Positions 9,184 through 64,000 of a stretch of DNA of 64,000 nucleotides are shown piece after piece. This DNA comes from a phage. Under the pieces are notes generated by a model that worked only from the letters and a program-made list of their open reading frames with translations, was not told where the DNA came from and searched no databases. The stretch's first letter is position 1, and the number at the start of each line of letters is the position of its first letter. The stretch lies in sequence record PZ445428.1, one strand, 5' to 3'. The position numbers and the translations under genes were made by a program.

Positions 9184-10034
9184 AACAATATATTGAAACA
9201 GGAAAACGTATTCTCGAAGAAGGTCAGTGGGTAACTAATCCTAGAACAGGTGTACGTTGCCTCACTATTATTGATGCAGATTTCACTTTTAATGTGGGGG
9301 CTAATGAATTTCCTCTTATTACTACTCGTAAGGCATTTGCAAAACAAGCAATAATGGAAATGATTGGCTATCTACGTGGTTATGACTCCGCAGCACAATT
9401 CCGCGATATCGGGGTTAATACGTGGAACGCTAATGCAAATGAAAACCTTGCATGGTTGGATAATCCATATCGTAAAGGCGAGGATGATATGGGACGGGTC
9501 TATGGTGTTCAAGGACGTCATTGGACAAACTCTGATGGTCTTATGTTTGACCAATTATCCAAGATCTATCGTAACCTGAAAAGAGGGATTGATGATCGTG
9601 GGGAAATTCTAACTTTCTGGAATCCGGGGGAGTTCTCAAAGGGCTGCTTGCGTCCTTGTATGCACACCCATCAGTTCTCTATTCTAGGTGATACCTTATA
9701 TCTGAATTCATTTCAGAGGTCTAATGACTTCCTGCTAGGCCAGGTATTTAACATGGTTCAATGCTACGCTTTGCTTGCAATCATGGCTCAAATCACTGGA
9801 TATAAACCTGGGATCGCTCGCCAAAAGATCGTGAATCTTCACATCTATGAGAATCAGTATGAAGTTCTAATGGAACACAAACAGTTTGATCGTGAACCTT
9901 TTGAGCCGCCTCATCTGATTATTAATCCAGATATTCGAACTTTGGATGATGTATTAACTTGGGTAAGTAAGGATGATTTTACTGTTCGTGGCTATGAACA
10001 TCATCCTGCTATTGCATATCCATTTACGGTGTAA
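9180..10034 (+). CDS. thyA: thymidylate synthase
   Basis: 284-aa ORF; [10 protein letters not shown] catalytic-Cys region and QRSNDFLLG motif typical of ThyA. Confidence 0.85.
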
Positions 10035-10037
10035 CAT

Positions 10038-10391
10038 ATGTTAATTATACTATTATTTGTAATATTCTTTCTAAAACATTTTATGGCCGATTATCCTCTC
10101 CAAACACCATATATGCTAAGAAAGACTCATAAAATAGGGTGGAAACTTCCATTATTAACCCATTCTCTAGTACATGCTGTATTAACATTTGCAATTCTAA
10201 TTCTATTCACATCACTAGGGATGGCTATAGCTTTAGCTATTATGGAATTAATTTTACACTTTATTATAGATTATTGGAAAGCACAACGCTGTAAGTACGC
10301 TATAAGCGATGCTAAGTTTTGGATAGCTTTAGGATTTGATCAGTTACTGCACTATCTGACATACGCCTTAATAATCTTGATTATAATCTAA
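10038..10391 (+). CDS. small hydrophobic membrane protein
   Basis: ORF track; multiple predicted TM stretches. Confidence 0.5.
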   Translation: MLIILLFVIFFLKHFMADYPLQTPYMLRKTHKIGWKLPLLTHSLVHAVLTFAILILFTSLGMAIALAIMELILHFIIDYWKAQRCKYAISDAKFWIALGFDQLLHYLTYALIILIII

Positions 10392-48931: not shown

Positions 48932-49819
48932 ATGAGTACATATAATTTCAAAGACAAACTGAGACAAAATGCCGGTAAAGGGAAAACTAAGGAAACAAAT
49001 AACATTCCAAATGCTAAGATCCTACCATTCCCTGAACTAACCCAAGAAGAAAAAGATAAACTAGCATTTATGTTTGACACCTTGCTAGGGTTGAATGGGC
49101 GTTTATATTCTACGTTATCTTTAAATGAGAAACGTTTAGTGGAGTTCTTCGGAAAACGTTATCAAGTTACATCTAAGGGTAATGCTCTTAAAGAAGGAGA
49201 GAAACCCTACACAGTTATTAAGATTAGTGCATATGCACATCGTTTTTTAATTCGTGCGCTAGAGACAGAATACTTCACGTTACCCTCATTTAGTGCATTC
49301 CATATCTTCGAAGATGAACGAATGAATATTGATGATTTATATGGAGATCGTTATCAATATTCTGGAAGTCCTTTTCATGATGCATTGAGAAGCTACCCAA
49401 ATTGTTATCTACCAATCAGAGCATCACAAGGTAAAGCAAGTGTCTTTGCAGTGTATTCAGGATCTAAAGCATCTGATATAGAAACTTATATTTATAAAGA
49501 ACGCAGATCTGCTATTCCTGAAGAAGCACGTTATGAAAATCCAATCCTACCAACTAAAGAAGTCAAGGAAACCAAAACTTCTACTACTCAAACAGAATCT
49601 CCTTATCTGAAATTTGAGAAACAAACTGGATGGGTTCTAGAAATGGGTATAGCTTCACCGCTTGCTGCAGCATTCATCAATAGATATCTAGAAATTCCTG
49701 ACGAGTTCCACTCACGTTATAACACGAATATTCAGATCACTGATGAATTAATTGCAATTGCAAAAGATACACCTACAGATACCGAGGCGTATCAAAAAGC
49801 GTACCAAGAACTACTGTAA
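48932..49819 (+). CDS. hypothetical protein (295 aa)
   Basis: ORF track; AAAAGGAAA RBS. Confidence 0.55.
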   Translation: MSTYNFKDKLRQNAGKGKTKETNNIPNAKILPFPELTQEEKDKLAFMFDTLLGLNGRLYSTLSLNEKRLVEFFGKRYQVTSKGNALKEGEKPYTVIKISAYAHRFLIRALETEYFTLPSFSAFHIFEDERMNIDDLYGDRYQYSGSPFHDALRSYPNCYLPIRASQGKASVFAVYSGSKASDIETYIYKERRSAIPEEARYENPILPTKEVKETKTSTTQTESPYLKFEKQTGWVLEMGIASPLAAAFINRYLEIPDEFHSRYNTNIQITDELIAIAKDTPTDTEAYQKAYQELL

Positions 49820-49829
49820 ATATCTGCAT

Positions 49830-49858
49830 GTCTCGGTACACAATACCTGTACCGAGAC
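49830..49858. repeat. perfect 11-bp inverted repeat hairpin (GTCTCGGTACA...TGTACCGAGAC) at end of early gene array
   Basis: Read directly; no U-run follows. Confidence 0.6.
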
Positions 49859-50189
49859 AACAATACAAACTCTCGTTGACAGATAGATTAATGTATGTTA
49901 TCATAACTCTATGAGTTAATAAAATTAACCATTTAGAGTTGCCACACAGAAGGTGTGGTGGTTCAGGAATCTTAAATTACTGACTTGTAGCGTAGGATAC
50001 GGAGCGACAGGACAAGTCAACAGGTAATTTAATAAAGATTACTAGAAACATCACGAGACCTTCTGGCGGGGGCAAAGCTCTATATGAGAACCCTGGGGGA
50101 TCTTATACTTATATAAAAACTGATACTGTCAAATAGGTAAATTAACGTTCAAGATGATACACCGGTTGCCGCTCATCTGCTAGGATGGC

Positions 50190-50470
50190 TCAACACTTTC
50201 TTCTAGACTCCTAAGTTTCTAGGAAAACTCTCGATATCCAGGGCAGTTTTCATTATTCCTAGAAACTCTAGCAATAGGCGGTTAATACAGTAAACTGTCA
50301 TTTCAGTCGCTACCCTCCTTCAATGACAGGGCGGTTATAGGGAGGGCGGTTATTTCTAGGAGACATTTTTTGAAAACACATTTCTGGAAATTCTCATCGG
50401 ATTTGCACATTACATTTCTAGAAATTTATGGTCGGATTTGCACATTGATAGAAGACTCCAGAATTTCTAT
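50190..50470. repeat. cluster of TTTCTAGRAA-type palindromic motifs (about 6 copies)
   Basis: AGTTTCTAGGAAAACT, TTCCTAGAAACT, CATTTCTAGGAGA, TACATTTCTAGAAATTTATG, CCAGAATTTCTATG read in sequence. Confidence 0.5.
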
Positions 50471-50996
50471 GAACATTGAAAATAGCAGCATTATTTCGGG
50501 CCGAAGGCCCATGTTTGCCTGAGTTTTTAGAGCCACAGGAATTTTCACTTGTCAAGCAATTTTGCCCCCTTTAACTAATAAAATTTCACATAATCTCCAC
50601 CTATCTCAAATCTCCCCAAAACATCCCACATTATCCCCAAAAACGCAGCAAATAAGGCGTTTCACGCCATTTCCGCTGCCCCTTCCGTTTCTCCTCTTAT
50701 TTTCTCTCACTGCGTCAACTCTCACACAAACTCACACAATCACACACTCTCTCATCGAACTCACAAAAACTTCATCGGATTCGCACATCTTAACCCTAGA
50801 AAAATCATGTCGTATTTGCACATATGCGGCTGGATTTGTGCGCAGCACGAGTCTGCCCGAGTTTTTAGGAAAATTCATTGTCGGATTTGCACAATATAAA
50901 ATATTTTCGGGTCGGATTTGCACACTACCAAAAATTGTCGGATTCGCACATACACGCCCACGCGTAATTCATGGCGGCAAATGTCGGATTTGCACA
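50394..50996 (+). repeat. array of about 9 direct copies of 14-bp motif GTCGGATT(T/C)GCACA with irregular spacing
   Basis: Copies near 50397, 50431, 50775, 50809, 50830 (degenerate), 50880, 50911, 50937, 50983, all same orientation. Confidence 0.8.
50570..50760 (+). repeat. CA/CT-rich low-complexity tract (CTCACACAA repeats)
   Basis: Strand-biased pyrimidine+A composition; generates spurious Pro/Ser/Thr/His ORFs. Confidence 0.6.
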
Positions 50997-51039
50997 AAAG
51001 CGCAGGGCAAAATGAAAATGCCCTGCTGGCCGAAATGCG

Positions 51040-51175
51040 AATGATAATGAGAACGATTCGCATTTGAGAAGTTGAATGCGAATGAGAATGAGTCGCGTTT
51101 GGAAAGTGGAATGAGAATGGTTATTATTTACAGAGTTGAATGCGAATGAGTCGCATAATGAGAATGATTTGCATT
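51040..51175 (+). repeat. tandem GAATGCGAATGAGAATGA-family repeats
   Basis: GTTGAATGCGAATGAG twice plus several GAATGAGAATG units. Confidence 0.7.
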
Positions 51176-51204
51176 TAGGGAGGGAAGTGAGAAACACTGC
51201 TATT

Positions 51205-51305
51205 TAAGTTATCCACAGGTTTATCAACAGCACGATTTGACTTGACAAAACCCTAGCGATTTTGAGGCGTTTTCAACAGACTTATCAACAGGTTATCCTA
51301 CTGGA
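51205..51305. promoter_or_regulatory. cluster of DnaA-box-like 9-mers (one perfect TTATCCACA, plus TTATCAACA x2 and TTATCCTAC)
   Basis: Consensus TTATCCACA at about 51209-51217; related boxes at about 51221, 51282, 51293. Confidence 0.5.
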
Positions 51306-51345
51306 TAAATATACAGTATTCCTGCGTAGGGAATAACTCTAATAT

Positions 51346-51385
51346 AGCGTTTAAACGCTCTCAAACGCATTCTAAGCGGTTTAAT
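51346..51385 (+). repeat. copy A of ~30-bp repeat AAACGCTCT..AA.GC.ATTCTAAGCG.TTT
   Basis: Near-identical to copy at 54931-54968; inverted related copy at 54393-54430. Confidence 0.55.
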
Positions 51386-51691
51386 TTTGGAGGAGGTATT
51401 TTAATAAGGGGAAATTTGTTTGCAGGCAGAAAAGGCGGGGCCGATAGTTGCGCCCCGTTATTATTAGAGGAGTGGGCAATTATCCCGCTTTGCCATTTCG
51501 CGCCACTCCTCCCACTGTTTCACCTTGCGGCGATGTTCCAAAAACTTTTTAAACCACTGTTTCATAATGCCATCGCACCTAGAATGAGAATGATTATTAT
51601 TAACATTGCAAAGCCGTTCCCAAATCGTAAACGCTGGGAATGTTTCCCAGCGGTATTATTAGATTTATGGGATTGCGTTTTACGCCACCAG

Positions 51692-51877
51692 CTATTCACG
51701 GTAGACACGCCAGCCGTCATTAAACATTTCACGGCTGTAAAATTCATGATTGAATTTGTAACCGTCCTCAGTGGTGATCACTTCATATTTCATGAATAAA
51801 TATTCATGGATAGAAAAATAACGATGGGTTACTTTTTCACCTTCTAGCATAGCCTTTACAGCTTCATTTCTAGTCAT
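51692..51877 (-). CDS. hypothetical protein (61 aa)
   Basis: ORF track; start overlaps stop of upstream gene (ATGA); AAGGTGG RBS. Confidence 0.45.
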   Translation of the reverse strand: MTRNEAVKAMLEGEKVTHRYFSIHEYLFMKYEVITTEDGYKFNHEFYSREMFNDGWRVYRE

Positions 51878-52218
51878 TGCGCCACCTTTCGAAACGCTGT
51901 TTCAATACTTTCAGCGGTTGATTGAATATACGCGCCTTTCATAATCAGGCGCTCTGTACATACTTTGCGGAAAATATCAATAAATTCATCTTCATTTTCT
52001 GCAATCAAAGGCTCACCCATAACCTGAATATCGCATGAGTTAAAAGTAAGAAACTGAAAGGCAAGCTCGCGAGCGACAACGGCATTAATCTTATAATGTG
52101 CTTTTCCTTCATAGATGTTAACCACGCCTTTATAAACTGGTGAAAGCTGATTTAAATAGTTTGCTAACAATGCCGGACGGCAATTAGTTACAAAGCGGTT
52201 GCCTTCATAAATAACCAT
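51874..52218 (-). CDS. hypothetical protein (114 aa)
   Basis: ORF track 51874..52317 trimmed to ATG after AGGAG RBS. Confidence 0.5.
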   Translation of the reverse strand: MVIYEGNRFVTNCRPALLANYLNQLSPVYKGVVNIYEGKAHYKINAVVARELAFQFLTFNSCDIQVMGEPLIAENEDEFIDIFRKVCTERLIMKGAYIQSTAESIETAFRKVAQ

Positions 52219-54430: not shown

Positions 54431-54930
54431 ATTGCGGTTGTTAGTGCTACCTATTTACCCTGTATATTTATACAGTAGGATAACCTGTTTATAAGTCTGT
54501 AGATAAGTCCTCTTATCTCTGCCTATTGCGTCAAGTTATTTTGTGCTGTGTATAACTTTGGGGATAAGTTAAATGATAGTGGTTCTCACTTAGCCCGATA
54601 GTTTCTCATAGTTATTATTTCTCATTAATTTATATGTATATTATATATTATGGAATAGTTAGTTGGCTAATAGGATTTTCCGTGATTAATAGTCTGCTAA
54701 TGATAACGCATGTTACAATCCACCAGCGCGATTACCATCCTAGCGACTGTTAGCGTGCTAATGATCCATAACGTTACCAATTCTTAAATGATACTCATTC
54801 TCATTGTAGGAAAGTTACGAAATGCTGTTATAAAGCAACATGTCAATAGCAAAGCGGGTAAGGCATAAAAATAAATTTTGTCAATACCCGAAAGTTATTA
54901 AATGTGGTGTGAATAAGTTATCAACAGGGT

Positions 54931-56470: not shown

Positions 56471-56887
56471 ATGTCTAACGTTAAAACCGAAAAAACCGCA
56501 AAATTCTCTTGGAACGAAGAAAACACCGAAAAAGCGGTATCAATGTATAATACTTTCGTAAAAGATAGCGGCATTGAATTTGCTAACACTGACGGCTTAA
56601 AAGAAATTGCCGCCGCCGTTGGCGCTGCAAGTCCTGTTTCTGTACGTTCTAAATTGACAAGCGCGAAAGCGTATCAGAAAAGCGATAAACCGCGTAAAGT
56701 TGGCGGCGGGTCTAGTGTCCGTAAAGCTCACTATGTACGCGTCATTGCTAAACACGCCATTGATTCAGGTATCGTAAAAGATGCTGACGATCTGGCATCG
56801 CTGGAAAGTGCAAAATTGGAAACGCTGGACGCGGTAGCGCAATTGCTCGGCGTAGCGGAGGAAGTAAAACAGGCCGCAGGTGAATAA
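56471..56887 (+). CDS. hypothetical protein (138 aa); possible A2-like pre-early protein
   Basis: ORF track 56453..56887 trimmed to ATG after AATGGAGT; size and position relative to A1-like gene fit T5 A2 (inference only). Confidence 0.4.
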   Translation: MSNVKTEKTAKFSWNEENTEKAVSMYNTFVKDSGIEFANTDGLKEIAAAVGAASPVSVRSKLTSAKAYQKSDKPRKVGGGSSVRKAHYVRVIAKHAIDSGIVKDADDLASLESAKLETLDAVAQLLGVAEEVKQAAGE

Positions 56888-59778: not shown

Positions 59779-60513
59779 ATGAATCAAGTTAACATGAATA
59801 TTACCCGCACTTTCCCGCATATTTCCCGCGTTATGATTTGGGATTTAGACGGAACGGTTATAAATAGTTTTCATCGTGTAGCGCCTTGCTTTGATGATAA
59901 CGGGAATTTAGATTTAGTTAAGTATTCCCGCGAAGCCTGCAAACATGATTTAATTATGCAGGATTCTTTATTGCCATTGGTTGAATATATGCGCCAATGT
60001 ATGAATGATGCTAATACATTAAACATCATTTGCACCGCTCGCTTAATGTCTAAAAGCGATTATTTCTACTTACGTAAACAAGGTCTAAGAGGGCGCGGAA
60101 ATAGTAACATTCGCGTGTTTTCCCGAGATACATTACATAAATACTTTGAAGCGGAAAAGGTTAGCGATATATATCACAGCAAAGACGCTGTATATAAATC
60201 TTATTACTTTGAACTGTTTAAACAGCTATATCCGAACGCTGATTTTACGATGATTGATGATCATAAAGGCGTATTATCAGCAGCAGCAAACGCAGGATTT
60301 AAAACACTGGACGCTCAAGCCGTTAACGATATCCTATCAATCGGGGTAACATTGATCGGTGAAACCTTTATTGATGAATCGCTTGATGATGATAACGATT
60401 ATCAATTCCTAGCCGAACGTTTAAAAATGTGTTGGGAAGGTATGACCGAAGAAGAACGCAGCGAATATAGTACCACGCCGCAACAGTTCATTGATAAATT
60501 AAAAGTTGCCTAA
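59779..60513 (+). CDS. dmp: 5'-deoxyribonucleotidase-like HAD-family hydrolase
   Basis: 244-aa ORF; HAD motif I IWDLDGTVI near N-terminus; size matches T5 dmp. Confidence 0.6.
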   Translation: MNQVNMNITRTFPHISRVMIWDLDGTVINSFHRVAPCFDDNGNLDLVKYSREACKHDLIMQDSLLPLVEYMRQCMNDANTLNIICTARLMSKSDYFYLRKQGLRGRGNSNIRVFSRDTLHKYFEAEKVSDIYHSKDAVYKSYYFELFKQLYPNADFTMIDDHKGVLSAAANAGFKTLDAQAVNDILSIGVTLIGETFIDESLDDDNDYQFLAERLKMCWEGMTEEERSEYSTTPQQFIDKLKVA

Positions 60514-60677
60514 CAATTAAAAATAAAATAGTCACGGTGTGTAATGATAACATGCCGTGACTATTAGCTTGCTAAGTACCGGGGCGGTAATGAGACTCAT
60601 TCTCATCTGGGGAACCACTGGGCCCACCTCCATGTGTAATCTTATGAAATTTGGCAAAAAGGTAATTAGCGCTAAAC

Positions 60678-63518: not shown

Positions 63519-64000
63519 ATGGCAAATGATGTTTTAGTACCTGATCTCATGTCTCCTGAAGGCATGGACGTAATTGAGGCTTATCTACAATGTGGTAGTG
63601 ATGTACGAATGGCCTCACGTACTCTTGGAATGTCGGAAATTGCATTCCGCGATATTATGAATCGTGGTGAGGTAAAGAATTATCTCAACGACATATTTAT
63701 GGAGAGTGGCTTCCGCAATCGTGACAAGTTATTTGGTGTACTCGATGAAGTCATCAAGCGCAAGTTGGAAGAACTCGAAGAAACTGGTATGGGATCTGAC
63801 CAGGATATCATGGATATTCTGTGGAAAGCCCATAAAATGAAGATGGAAGAAATGAAGATGATGGTAGAGCTGGAGAAAGCGAGAGCTGCTACACGTGCTC
63901 CTACTAATCAGACTAACATTCAGAACAACATTATTGCTGGCTCCGGTGATCAGAACTACATGGACTTAATTACTTCGCTAGCAACTGGAGGTAGAAAGTA
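63519..64000 (+). CDS. HTH DNA-binding protein, possibly terminase small subunit (3' end beyond window)
   Basis: AAGGAGG RBS; helix-turn-helix-like [16 protein letters not shown]; no stop before window end. Confidence 0.35.

What the first reader, a model, noticed from the sequence alone, without database searches (positions are those of the whole stretch)
51040..51175. Tandem GAATGCGAATGAGAATGA repeat block
A third distinct repeat family directly abutting the 14-mer array; units such as GTTGAATGCGAATGAG recur twice with GAATGAGAATG fillers. May form unusual DNA structure or bind a different factor than the 14-mer.
Basis: seen in the sequence. Interest (0 to 1): 0.45.

Follow-up and report, generated by a model that had tools for sequence, protein, structure and literature searches.

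The report
Fur-box-like repeats at phage injection stop
The repeat block is real and matches the known but unexplained "direct repeat C / palindrome" module at the point where T5-like phages pause DNA injection; its units read as host iron-repressor (Fur) binding sites, while related phages carry methionine-repressor (MetJ) sites in the same place, which gives a testable lead on an old question.

Summary
Window 51031-51182 holds four head-to-tail units of 41, 35, 29 and 47 bp. The window is a T5-like phage, 100% identical to Escherichia phage TrudiGerster. The block is the ortholog of T5's annotated "direct repeat C copies 1-4 / palindromes E-J", which lie in the non-coding Repeat Region 3 of the terminal repeat, the candidate injection stop signal. 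Its function is unknown in the literature I could read.

What I add:
- Units in 26 relatives are 23+6n bp long, and there are 3-10 per phage.
- They are arrays of GNNAAT / ATTNNC hexamers that match the Fur box as well as proven E. coli operators do.
- A matrix built only from phage units ranks footprinted Fur operators first in 144 kb of E. coli DNA, and the reverse test also works.
- The palindrome arms show no compensatory change, which argues against a hairpin role.
- In Providencia, Aeromonas and Vibrio relatives the same slot holds 8-16 tandem MetJ "metbox" 8-mers.

Best reading: a promoter-less array that loads a host repressor at the boundary between first-step and second-step DNA transfer. 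Binding and function are inferred, not shown.

The parts
51031..51071 (+). Unit 1 (41 bp = 23+18). It reads CGAAAT GCGAAT GATAAT GAGAAC g ATTCGC ATTTGA gaag and contains a perfect 10-bp inverted repeat.
   Evidence: Fur-type scores: 14/19 to the consensus at 51043 and 17.0 bits at 51049 with the E. coli-derived matrix.
51072..51106 (+). Unit 2 (35 bp = 23+12): TTGAATGCGAATGAGAATGAGTCGCGTTTGGAAAG.
   Evidence: 14.0 bits at 51084 and 21.3 with the phage matrix at 51081.
51107..51135 (+). Unit 3 (29 bp = 23+6): TGGAATGAGAATGGTTATTATTTACAGAG.
   Evidence: 14/19 at 51113 and 21.8 bits.
51136..51182 (+). Unit 4 (47 bp = 23+24): TTGAATGCGAATGAGTCGCATAATGAGAATGATTTGCATTTAGGGAG. It is the long unit next to the conserved anchor and is the unit type most conserved across genera.
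   Evidence: 14/19 at 51154 and 20.6 bits at 51160. The same unit type is seen in Aeromonas phage AhSzw-1.
51000..51026 (.). Left flank: a GCGC motif and the hairpin GCAGGGCA-9-TGCCCTGC. This is the counterpart of T5 palindrome J and 'major single-stranded nick 1, 7.9%'.
50397..50997 (+). Context: seven copies of the 14-mer TCGGATT[TC]GCACA (T5 'direct repeat D').
51184..51199 (+). Right flank: the conserved anchor GAAGTGAGAAACACTG, which I used to collect relatives.
51209..51298 (+). Context: DnaA-box pairs (TTATCCACA ggt TTATCAACA; TTATCAACA ... GGTTATCCT). This corresponds to T5 IRD'-spacer-IRC'.
51580..51605 (.). Solitary Fur-like unit TAGAATGAGAATGATTATTATTAAC, about 285 bp beyond the DnaA cluster on the pre-early side. 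Positional counterparts exist in Vibrio phages.
   Evidence: 16/19; 26.4; 22.5 bits.

Best explanation
What it is: the block is the Epseptimavirus version of T5's 'direct repeat C / palindromes E-J' module. That module lies in Repeat Region 3 of the terminal repeat, the non-coding region that contains the point where T5 pauses DNA transfer (first-step/second-step boundary, about 7.9% of the genome).

Anatomy: it is an array of protein-binding sites, not an RNA, a promoter or a selected hairpin. Each unit is a run of GNNAAT hexamers followed, after one base, by inverted ATTNNC hexamers (consensus AATGAGAAT-g-ATTCTCATT). Units are joined by a directional linker CATTTARRAAGYG. Units grow and shrink by whole hexamers.

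Likely reader: the motif is the Fur box, so the most likely reader is the host ferric uptake regulator, loaded with Fe2+. Several dimers would bind side by side, 6 bp apart, and coat about 150 bp of DNA as this segment enters the cell.

Likely role: no promoter lies under the array, so it does not work as a classical operator. I infer that the host-protein coat marks or holds the DNA at the pause point until the phage A1/A2 proteins resume transfer, or gates that step on the metabolic state of the host. The second copy of the terminal repeat puts the same array about 0.5-0.7 kb from the right genome end, where a role in packaging or end protection is also possible.

Shown: identity with the T5 module, hexamer phasing, Fur-box equivalence of the sequence, variable unit number, absence of arm covariation, and MetJ-operator arrays in the same slot in other genera.

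Inferred: that Fur (or MetJ) actually binds, and what that binding does.
For: Identity and position
- The window is 100% identical to phage TrudiGerster, and more than 500 T5-like records match.
- The block aligns with T5 9468-9666, annotated as DRC copies 1-4 and palindromes E-J. It sits between DnaA-box repeats and nick 1 / DRD.
- The estimated shear point, T5 9618, falls inside the block.

Phasing
- Simple units are 23 (42 cases), 29 (5) and 35 bp (29). The window units are 41, 35, 29 and 47 bp.

Fur equivalence
- Three sites in the block match the consensus at 14/19, and relatives reach 15-17/19. Operators in the E. coli loci I fetched score 12-16/19 on the same measure.
- A matrix built from 46 phage 19-mers was scanned over 144 kb of E. 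coli DNA. Its top four hits are fecA, fepD-entS, fhuA and fecI, and 9 of the top 16 fall in seven known Fur operator regions that make up 1% of the sequence.
- Six of the top 10 non-overlapping hits are in those regions, against a mean of 0.59 and a maximum of 4 for 300 column-shuffled matrices.
- All seven regions are footprinted or gel-shifted Fur sites in PMC2189734.
- Reverse test: with a matrix from seven E. coli operators, every window hit of at least 14 bits lies at or beyond 51049. Four are in the block. The background rate is 8 per 142,346 positions.
- Neighbouring hits are 6 bp apart in 68 cases, as described for Fur clusters.
- The invariant phage positions (G, AAT/ATT) fit the bases Fur reads directly. 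Those are one guanine and one or two thymines, plus an AT-rich minor groove (PMC4506495).

Other evidence
- The arms show no covariation.
- The array is conserved in Sugarlandvirus, Myunavirus, Hongcheonvirus and Novosibvirus.
- In Providencia PR1, Aeromonas AhSzw-1 and Vibrio VPT02 and D254 the same slot holds 8-16 in-register 8-mers, each matching the MetJ metbox at 5-8 of 8 (mostly 6-7).
- A PR1-derived matrix picks the metJ-metB and metF operators as its top two hits in 166 kb of E. coli DNA.
Against: - No binding experiment exists.
- The array lies between convergent genes, and promoter-like sites are not enriched (8 found against 5.4 +/- 2.1 expected). It therefore fails the usual functional context of a Fur operator.
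- The phage consensus hexamer is GAGAAT/GCGAAT rather than GATAAT. At positions -4/+4 of the 19-mer it has G 0.52 / T 0.30 and C 0.66 / A 0.20.
- The long unit AATGCGAATGATAATnATTCGCATT is conserved from E. coli phages to an Aeromonas phage. That is more than a degenerate reader such as Fur would seem to need, and it fits a more specific phage-encoded reader.
- The linker is directional and partly conserved, which a symmetric dimer site does not explain.
- It is not obvious how a cytoplasmic protein bound to DNA that has already entered could stop the DNA behind it.
- Vibrio phage D36 showed no array in the region I fetched.
- The older T5 papers (Heusterspreute 1987, Wang 2005, Davison 2015) could not be read, so prior mention of Fur cannot be excluded.
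Confidence: 0.5

Rival explanations
1. The units are binding sites for a phage-encoded protein. The obvious candidate is A2, the small DNA-binding protein that is needed together with A1 for second-step transfer. The small terminase subunit acting on the terminal repeat is another. On this reading the likeness to the Fur box is convergence on an AT-rich palindrome.
For: - The long unit is conserved far beyond what a degenerate reader needs. It is identical in type in E. coli phages and in Aeromonas phage AhSzw-1.
- The consensus is systematically offset from GATAAT.
- The linker is directional.
- A1 and A2 are conserved across the family.
- Sources name A2 homologs 'DNA binding protein'.
- The A2 model has two small helical domains with weak Myb/HTH-like matches.
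- The array stays with the 14-mer array when other DNA is inserted, and in T5 that array straddles the terminal-repeat boundary.
Against: - The reciprocal matrix tests single out genuine Fur operators.
- Other genera keep A1 and A2 but fill the slot with near-consensus MetJ metboxes. It is unlikely that phage proteins would mimic two different host operators by chance.
- The A2 fold matches are not significant (best E about 1), and A2 matched no family in the local Pfam scan and no solved structure by sequence.
Confidence: 0.25
2. The palindromes act as DNA structure. Either hairpins or cruciforms stall translocation through the tail channel, or they are the cleavage sites proposed by Davison, where A1/A2 cut to release the first-step DNA.
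For: - Each unit contains an inverted repeat.
- Both strands fold far better than shuffles (z -5.1 and -5.25).
- Davison's preprint names the palindromes of this region as candidate restriction-like sites.
Against: - Arm pairing is not maintained by compensatory change (63/99 against 63.9 expected, P = 0.66), and many units have one or two central mismatches.
- Stems are short and AT-rich.
- Unit number and unit type vary freely.
- In other genera the slot holds tandem direct 8-mers rather than long palindromes.
Confidence: 0.1
3. The arrays are decoys. After replication, thousands of copies soak up Fur (or MetJ) and derepress host iron-uptake or methionine/SAM genes for the benefit of the phage.
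For: - The array has no promoter, contains many sites, and is present in both terminal repeats.
- Metbox-like arrays also occur in unrelated jumbo phages (Escherichia phage A4 and XbC2).
Against: - T5 degrades host DNA within minutes of infection, so there would be little host transcription left to derepress.
- The fixed position at the injection-stop slot is not explained.
Confidence: 0.07
4. The block is a slippage-prone hexamer satellite with no function of its own, carried along in a conserved non-coding region.
For: Unit number varies from 3 to 10, and units change length by whole hexamers.
Against: The core motif and its position are kept across six genera, while neighbouring genes are not. 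Specific positions (G, AAT) are invariant while others drift.
Confidence: 0.05

Closest known systems
T5 'direct repeat C copies 1-4' and palindromes E-J in Repeat Region 3 of the terminal repeat (GenBank AY587007; Davison bioRxiv 10.1101/866236)
   Same: Homologous sequence with the same flanks: the DRD 14-mers and nick 1 / palindrome J on one side, and the DnaA-box inverted repeat on the other. It has the same place between convergent genes and the same position at the first-step/second-step boundary.
   Different: There are four units here (41/35/29/47 bp) against six in T5. GCGAAT/ATTCGC arms predominate here, where T5 has GAGAAT/ATTCTC. The papers I could read describe the module only as repeats and palindromes of unknown function.
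E. coli Fur-binding site clusters (fepB-entC, fepD-entS, fecI, fhuA, iucA; Chen et al. 2007, PMC2189734)
   Same: GATAAT-type hexamers in a forward-forward-x-reverse arrangement, overlapping sites 6 bp apart, and equal consensus scores. The two motifs also find each other in matrix scans.
   Different: There is no promoter underneath. Clusters are repeated as 23+6n units with a conserved directional linker. The third hexamer base is mostly G or C rather than T. The array sits on a virulent phage, at a DNA-entry pause site.
MetJ operators (tandem 8-bp metboxes AGACGTCT; PMC3228920)
   Same: Related phages carry 8-16 in-register metbox-like 8-mers in the same slot. They are recognised by the same test that finds the metJ-metB and metF operators.
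   Different: This window has none (best 15/24). The phage arrays are longer than either E. coli met operator seen here (two overlapping 24-bp windows, about four boxes each), and they lack a promoter.
DnaA-box model of the T5 injection stop (Davison 2020 preprint)
   Same: It also proposes that a host DNA-binding protein, recognising repeated sites in Repeat Region 3, holds the entering DNA.
   Different: It concerns the neighbouring DnaA boxes (window 51209-51298). It treats the palindromes of this block only as possible A1 cleavage sites. Fur, iron and MetJ are not mentioned.
Host-factor site in a phage packaging signal (IHF site I1 in lambda cosB; from my own knowledge)
   Same: A host DNA-binding protein site embedded among phage repeats near a genome end.
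   Different: That case has a single bending site with a shown packaging role. Here there is a multi-site array, and its role is untested.

Membership tests
T5 DRC/palindrome E-J module of Repeat Region 3 (injection-stop region) | Sequence homology to T5 9468-9666 | tested here: met
   The MAFFT alignment of window 50960-51320 with the T5 reverse complement has a mean column identity of 85% including flanks. Units align with indels of whole units.
T5 DRC/palindrome E-J module of Repeat Region 3 (injection-stop region) | Flanked by the DRD 14-mer array plus nick 1 / palindrome J on one side and by the DnaA-box inverted repeat on the other, in a long non-coding stretch between convergent genes of the terminal repeat | tested here: met
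T5 DRC/palindrome E-J module of Repeat Region 3 (injection-stop region) | Acts in cis to stop DNA transfer | not testable with these tools
   This needs infection experiments. Even for T5 the signal has not been mapped to these repeats.
Fur box / Fur-binding site cluster | Match to GATAATGATAATCATTATC at the level of proven operators | tested here: met
   The block scores 14/19 three times, and relatives reach 15-17/19. Operators in the fetched E. coli loci score 12-16/19.
Fur box / Fur-binding site cluster | At least three GATAAT-like hexamers, with overlapping sites 6 bp apart | tested here: met
   Units hold 3-7 hexamers. There are 68 neighbouring hits at a 6-bp offset. The criterion comes from PMC2189734.
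Fur box / Fur-binding site cluster | The motif is interchangeable with that of footprinted operators | tested here: met
   The phage matrix ranks fecA, fepD-entS, fhuA and fecI first in 144 kb. The shuffle control gives 0 of 300. The E. coli matrix ranks the block among the top hits in the window.
Fur box / Fur-binding site cluster | Overlaps a promoter that it represses | tested here: not met
   The array lies in a convergent intergenic region, and promoter-like sites are at the chance level. It should therefore not be filed as a classical Fur operator.
Fur box / Fur-binding site cluster | Bound by metal-loaded Fur in vitro or in vivo | not testable with these tools
   No experiment is available, and no paper in the searched library links T5-like phages and Fur.
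Structured DNA/RNA element (cruciform, hairpin, terminator, Rfam family) | Base pairing kept by compensatory changes | tested here: not met
   63/99 Watson-Crick pairs against a shuffle mean of 63.9, P = 0.66.
Structured DNA/RNA element (cruciform, hairpin, terminator, Rfam family) | Match to a curated RNA family, or a hairpin followed by a T-run | tested here: not met
   There is no Rfam match in the block. The only two weak matches in 49800-51900 lie outside it, with E of 0.36 or more and well below the gathering score. No terminator-like site lies in the block.
MetJ operator array | Two or more adjacent 8-bp metboxes | tested here: not met
   The best score in the window is 15/24 against (AGACGTCT)x3. 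This feature is met only in relatives of other genera.

The most novel reading that the evidence does not exclude
Phages of the T5 family place promoter-less tandem arrays of operators for small host repressors that sense a cofactor exactly at the injection-stop locus. Escherichia, Salmonella, Klebsiella, Pectobacterium and Proteus phages use Fur-Fe2+ sites. Vibrio phages use MetJ-SAM sites. Providencia and Aeromonas phages have both. Cooperative coating of the entering DNA by the cofactor-loaded repressor would then be part of the mechanism that holds the DNA at the 8% pause, or a checkpoint that ties second-step transfer to the iron and SAM status of the host.
Probability: 0.3. Interest if true: 0.9.

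Novelty: new variant of a known kind. Interest (0 to 1): 0.62.

Why it matters
How T5 stops after injecting 8% of its genome has been an open question for about 60 years. The stop region is still described in 2026 only as "rich in repeats and palindromes".

Reading its central repeat module as a Fur-site array, and its counterpart in other genera as a MetJ-site array, turns that description into a concrete hypothesis with named host proteins. It can be tested cheaply with fur and metJ mutants, iron or methionine limitation, gel shifts, and unit deletions or swaps.

It would also be a rare case of a virulent phage using operator sequences of host metabolic repressors for something other than transcription control.

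If Fur does not bind, the result still stands that the module is a hexamer-phased protein-site array rather than a structural palindrome.

Tried and rejected
- **Hairpin or cruciform selection.** Tested by arm covariation on 33 distinct long units and rejected.
- **RNA element.** No credible Rfam match.
- **Promoter, operator or terminator role.** Consensus scans are at the chance level and the flanking genes converge.
- **Base composition as the cause of the Fur-like hits.** GC is 0.39-0.42 across the whole window, and column-shuffled matrices do not reproduce the result.
- **ArgR, Zur and IHF motifs.** I compared these from memory. The spacings do not fit. They were not tested formally.
- **A2 as a recognisable DNA-binding fold.** The model has pLDDT 83 but only insignificant Myb/HTH-like matches. 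It matched no family in the local Pfam scan and no solved homolog by sequence.
- **A generic DnaA-box-pair pattern to collect distant relatives.** It returned mostly unrelated contigs and was abandoned.
- **Proteus phage PM135, record start.** This was the wrong region.
- **Vibrio phage D36.** The homologous slot was not located and no array was found.
- **Davison 2015 review.** It is not held, so I could not check whether it mentions Fur.

Full report
**1. The observation.** The repeat block exists. Tandem Repeats Finder reports a period-35 array at 51039-51119 (2.3 copies, score 106) and a GAATGA hexamer run at 51074-51092. GTTGAATGCGAATGAG occurs at 51071 and 51135, and GAATGAGAATG at 51080 and 51109. 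With one mismatch allowed, GAATGAGAATG has 11 hits in the window against 1.95 +/- 1.37 in shuffles. Six of these lie at 51039-51166, all on the + strand. The repeat finder places four copies in register, starting at 51046, 51081, 51110 and 51157, and finds perfect inverted repeats inside the units. I delimit four head-to-tail units: 51031-51071 (41 bp), 51072-51106 (35), 51107-51135 (29) and 51136-51182 (47). The block does not touch the 14-mer array. A GCGC motif and an 8-bp-stem hairpin (51002-51026) lie between them.

**2. Where it sits.** The window is a T5-like phage. Region 50300-51500 is 100% identical to Escherichia phage TrudiGerster (Demerecviridae, Epseptimavirus), and more than 500 phage records match. 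The window's + strand is the reverse complement of the standard T5 orientation. The block aligns with T5 AY587007 positions 9468-9666. That record annotates this stretch as "direct repeat C copies 1-4" and "palindromes E, F, G, H, I, J". "Major single-stranded nick 1, 7.9%" and the "direct repeat D" 14-mers follow it, and the inverted repeats that carry DnaA boxes precede it.

This is Repeat Region 3 of the terminal repeat, a non-coding stretch of about 1.2 kb between convergent genes. Davison's comparative preprint treats it as the location of the injection stop signal and puts the estimated shear point of first-step DNA at T5 9618, which is inside this block. He proposes that the DnaA boxes hold the DNA, and mentions the palindromes only as possible A1 cleavage sites. 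Fur and iron are not mentioned. [quoted passage not shown]

**3. Anatomy across relatives.** I used the conserved anchor GAAGTGAGAAACACTG (window 51184) to collect about 30 T5-like loci from IMG/VR, which gave 23 distinct versions.
- The stretch from the last 14-mer to the anchor is 166-345 bp long and contains 3-10 units.
- Simple units are 23 bp (42 cases), 29 bp (5) or 35 bp (29), and some reach 41 or 47 bp. All are 23+6n.
- Each unit starts with GRAATG and ends with CATTTARRAAGYG.
- The core is a run of GNNAAT hexamers, one base, then inverted ATTNNC hexamers. The consensus 19-mer is AATGAGAAT-G-ATTCTCATT.
- A, A, T next to the centre and the outer AA/T are nearly invariant. Hexamer positions 2-3 drift (GCG, GAG, GAT, GCA, ACG).

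The array is kept right next to the 14-mers in Klebsiella phage Uniso31 (3 units), Pectobacterium phages My1 (5) and DU_PP_V (6), and in a degenerate form in Proteus phage Stubb. In My1 and DU_PP_V several hundred bp separate it from the DnaA boxes, so it travels with the 14-mer array.

**4. Structure or protein site?** Both strands fold much better than shuffles as single-stranded DNA (z -5.1 and -5.25). This only restates that palindromes are present. Among 33 distinct long units, the three variable positions of the two arms form Watson-Crick pairs in 63 of 99 cases. Re-pairing the arms at random gives 63.9 (P = 0.66), and many units carry one or two central mismatches. The half-sites therefore vary independently. 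That is what a dimeric protein site does and what a selected hairpin does not. No Rfam family matches the block, no terminator-like site lies in it, and promoter-like sites are at the chance level.

**5. The motif is the Fur box.** GNNAAT hexamers in a forward-forward-x-reverse arrangement are the architecture of the Fur box GATAATGATAATCATTATC.
- **(a) Consensus score.** The block has three sites at 14/19, and a solitary unit at 51586 has 16/19. Relatives reach 15-17/19, for example CGGAATGATAATCATTATC and GCGAATGATAATCATTCTC. On the same measure the Fur operators in the fetched E. coli loci score 12-16/19.
- **(b) Phage matrix on E. coli.** I built a matrix only from 46 distinct phage 19-mers and scanned four E. 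coli K-12 regions (144 kb). The top four hits are upstream of fecA, in fepD-entS, upstream of fhuA and upstream of fecI. Nine of the top 16 fall in seven Fur operator regions that make up 1.0% of the sequence. All seven are footprinted or gel-shifted sites in Chen et al. 2007. Two further top hits (upstream of yeiT/preT, and at yeiL) coincide with Fur clusters predicted in that paper, once I allow for an offset of about 1,975 bp between genome versions. That offset is my own inference.
- **(c) Shuffle control.** Six of the top 10 non-overlapping hits are in known operator regions. For 300 column-shuffled matrices the mean is 0.59 and the maximum 4.
- **(d) E. coli matrix on the window.** I built a matrix from the best consensus match in each of the seven E. 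coli regions, without using any phage data. Every hit of at least 14 bits in the 64 kb window lies at or beyond 51049. Four are in the block (17.0, 14.0, 21.8 and 20.6 bits). The E. coli background rate is 8 per 142,346 positions. All 26 phage blocks have 4-10 such hits. GC content is flat (0.39-0.42) along the window.
- **(e) Spacing.** Neighbouring hits are 6 bp apart in 68 cases. This is the spacing reported for Fur clusters.
- **(f) Base contacts.** In the Fur-DNA crystal structures only one guanine (Arg57) and one or two thymines (Tyr56) are read directly, along with an AT-rich narrow minor groove. Other positions may vary. This fits the invariant G and AAT/ATT of the phage hexamers and their drifting positions 2-3.

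**6. What does not fit.**
- The array has no promoter to repress.
- The commonest hexamer is GAGAAT or GCGAAT, not GATAAT.
- The long unit AATGCGAATGATAATnATTCGCATT is conserved more strictly than Fur would need.
- The linker is directional.

These points keep a phage-encoded reader in play. A2 is the natural candidate. It is required with A1 for second-step transfer, and sources name its homologs "DNA binding protein". Its AlphaFold model (pLDDT 83) has two small helical domains, with only insignificant Myb/HTH-like matches. It matched no family in the local Pfam scan and no solved structure by sequence.

**7. The same slot in other genera.** This was the most informative result.
- Providencia phage PR1 has one Fur-like unit followed by nine in-register 8-mers (AGCCGTCT AAACGTCT GGACGTCT ...). 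Each matches the MetJ metbox AGACGTCT at 6-7 of 8.
- Aeromonas phage AhSzw-1 has 16 such 8-mers followed by one perfect long Fur-like unit, GAATGCGAATGATAATAATTCGCATTC.
- Vibrio phages VPT02 and D254 have 9 and 8.

In every case the array lies between the GCGC motif with 14-mer-type repeats and the DnaA-box / "CTGTATAnnTATACAG" cluster. A matrix from the PR1 8-mers, used as three tandem copies, gives the metJ-metB operator and the metF operator as its top two hits in 166 kb of E. coli DNA. Matches of at least 17/24 to (AGACGTCT)x3 occur in those E. coli loci only at these two operators and at one site in a pseudogene. None occurs in the window, T5, My1, DU_PP_V or Uniso31. One MetJ dimer binds per 8-bp metbox, repression needs adjacent boxes, and MetJ is present in Vibrio and Aeromonas.

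Two unrelated operator types, each for a small host repressor that senses a cofactor and binds in tandem, thus occupy one conserved slot. This is hard to explain by phage proteins that happen to mimic host operators. I found no paper that links T5-like phages to Fur or phages to metbox arrays. Several older T5 papers are not held.

**8. How it most likely works.** Three things are shown: the sequence is a phased array of Fur-type sites, its unit number is free, and its position is fixed at the pause point of DNA transfer. The rest is inferred. When this segment enters the cytoplasm, metal-loaded Fur dimers would bind side by side and coat about 150 bp. The coat would hold or mark the DNA at the first-step/second-step boundary until A1 and A2 act, or it would make that step depend on the state of the host.

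The weak point is mechanical. A protein bound to DNA that is already inside does not obviously stop the DNA behind it. A holding or anti-backsliding role, or a role of the second copy, is as plausible as a true stop. In T5 that second copy lies about 0.5-0.7 kb from the right genome end. A decoy role is unlikely for T5 itself, because host DNA is destroyed early.

**9. Verdict.** The block is real and is already annotated in T5 as repeats and palindromes of unknown function. As far as I could check, the hexamer phasing, the lack of arm covariation, the Fur-box equivalence and the MetJ-type arrays in the same slot of other genera are new. I rate it a new variant of a known kind (a Fur-site cluster without a promoter, in a phage terminal repeat).

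Noticed in passing
window 50397-50997: There are seven copies of the 14-mer TCGGATT[TC]GCACA (T5 'direct repeat D'). In T5 this array straddles the terminal-repeat boundary at 10139, with copies on both sides. That looks like a terminase or end-formation signal rather than part of the stop signal.
   Followed up: partly
window 51000-51026: A GCGC motif and the hairpin GCAGGGCA-9-TGCCCTGC. In T5 this corresponds to palindrome J and the major 7.9% single-strand nick, about 25 bp from the first repeat unit.
   Followed up: partly
window 51580-51605: A solitary, very good Fur-like unit (16/19; 22.5 bits). It lies just after the terminator hairpin 51632-51652 and overlaps a weak minus-strand promoter-like site (51623 to 51596) that points toward the repeat region. 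Units in the equivalent position occur in Vibrio phages D254 (L178 1200) and VPT02 (L179 358); Vibrio phage D36 also has a solitary unit (L054 7315), but its slot was not located.
   Followed up: partly
window 54455-54806: An inverted copy of the anchor plus DnaA boxes (T5 Repeat Region 2, IRC-spacer-IRD), with a degenerate unit next to it and a good solitary unit at 54784-54806 (19.1 bits). It lies in the 1.2 kb divergent non-coding region upstream of the pre-early genes.
   Followed up: partly
window 60385-60409 and 60586-60604: More Fur-like sites. One is in the 3' end of the dNMP-monophosphatase gene. The other is about 70 bp outside the outer terminal-repeat boundary, as annotated in phage saus132 (roughly window 60521), and so is close to the physical left end of the genome.
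   Followed up: partly
window, whole: With the E. coli-derived Fur matrix, every hit of at least 14 bits in the 64 kb window lies at or beyond 51049, in the terminal-repeat / pre-early part. There are none in the first 51 kb, although GC content is uniform.
   Followed up: partly
window 50721-50771: A CTCACACAA-type short tandem repeat inside the CA-rich part of the non-coding region. A similar CA-rich stretch is seen in other T5-like contigs (for example L122).
   Followed up: no
L181 354-505 (Escherichia phage A4) and L182 about 300-430 (phage XbC2): Unrelated jumbo phages (Asteriusvirus and Mimasvirus) carry about 16-19 tandem metbox-like 8-mers in a non-coding stretch within a few kb of the record start. 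Phage-borne MetJ-operator-like arrays may therefore be more widespread.
   Followed up: partly
window 56471-56887: The A2 protein matched no family in the local Pfam scan (the database lists PF26822 for its homologs). It models as two small helical domains (residues 16-64 and 85-135) joined by a disordered Gly/Ser-rich linker, with only weak Myb/HTH-like fold matches.
   Followed up: partly
window 63520-64000: By the coordinates of the 100% match, the window runs about 480 bases past the end of the TrudiGerster record. The source must therefore be a circularly joined or differently permuted version with a single copy of the terminal repeat.
   Followed up: no
L049 39582; L050 8862 and 31011 (E. 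coli K-12): The phage-derived matrix also hits the map-rpsB intergenic region, upstream of preT (yeiT), and at yeiL. The last two coincide with Fur clusters predicted by Chen et al. 2007.
   Followed up: partly
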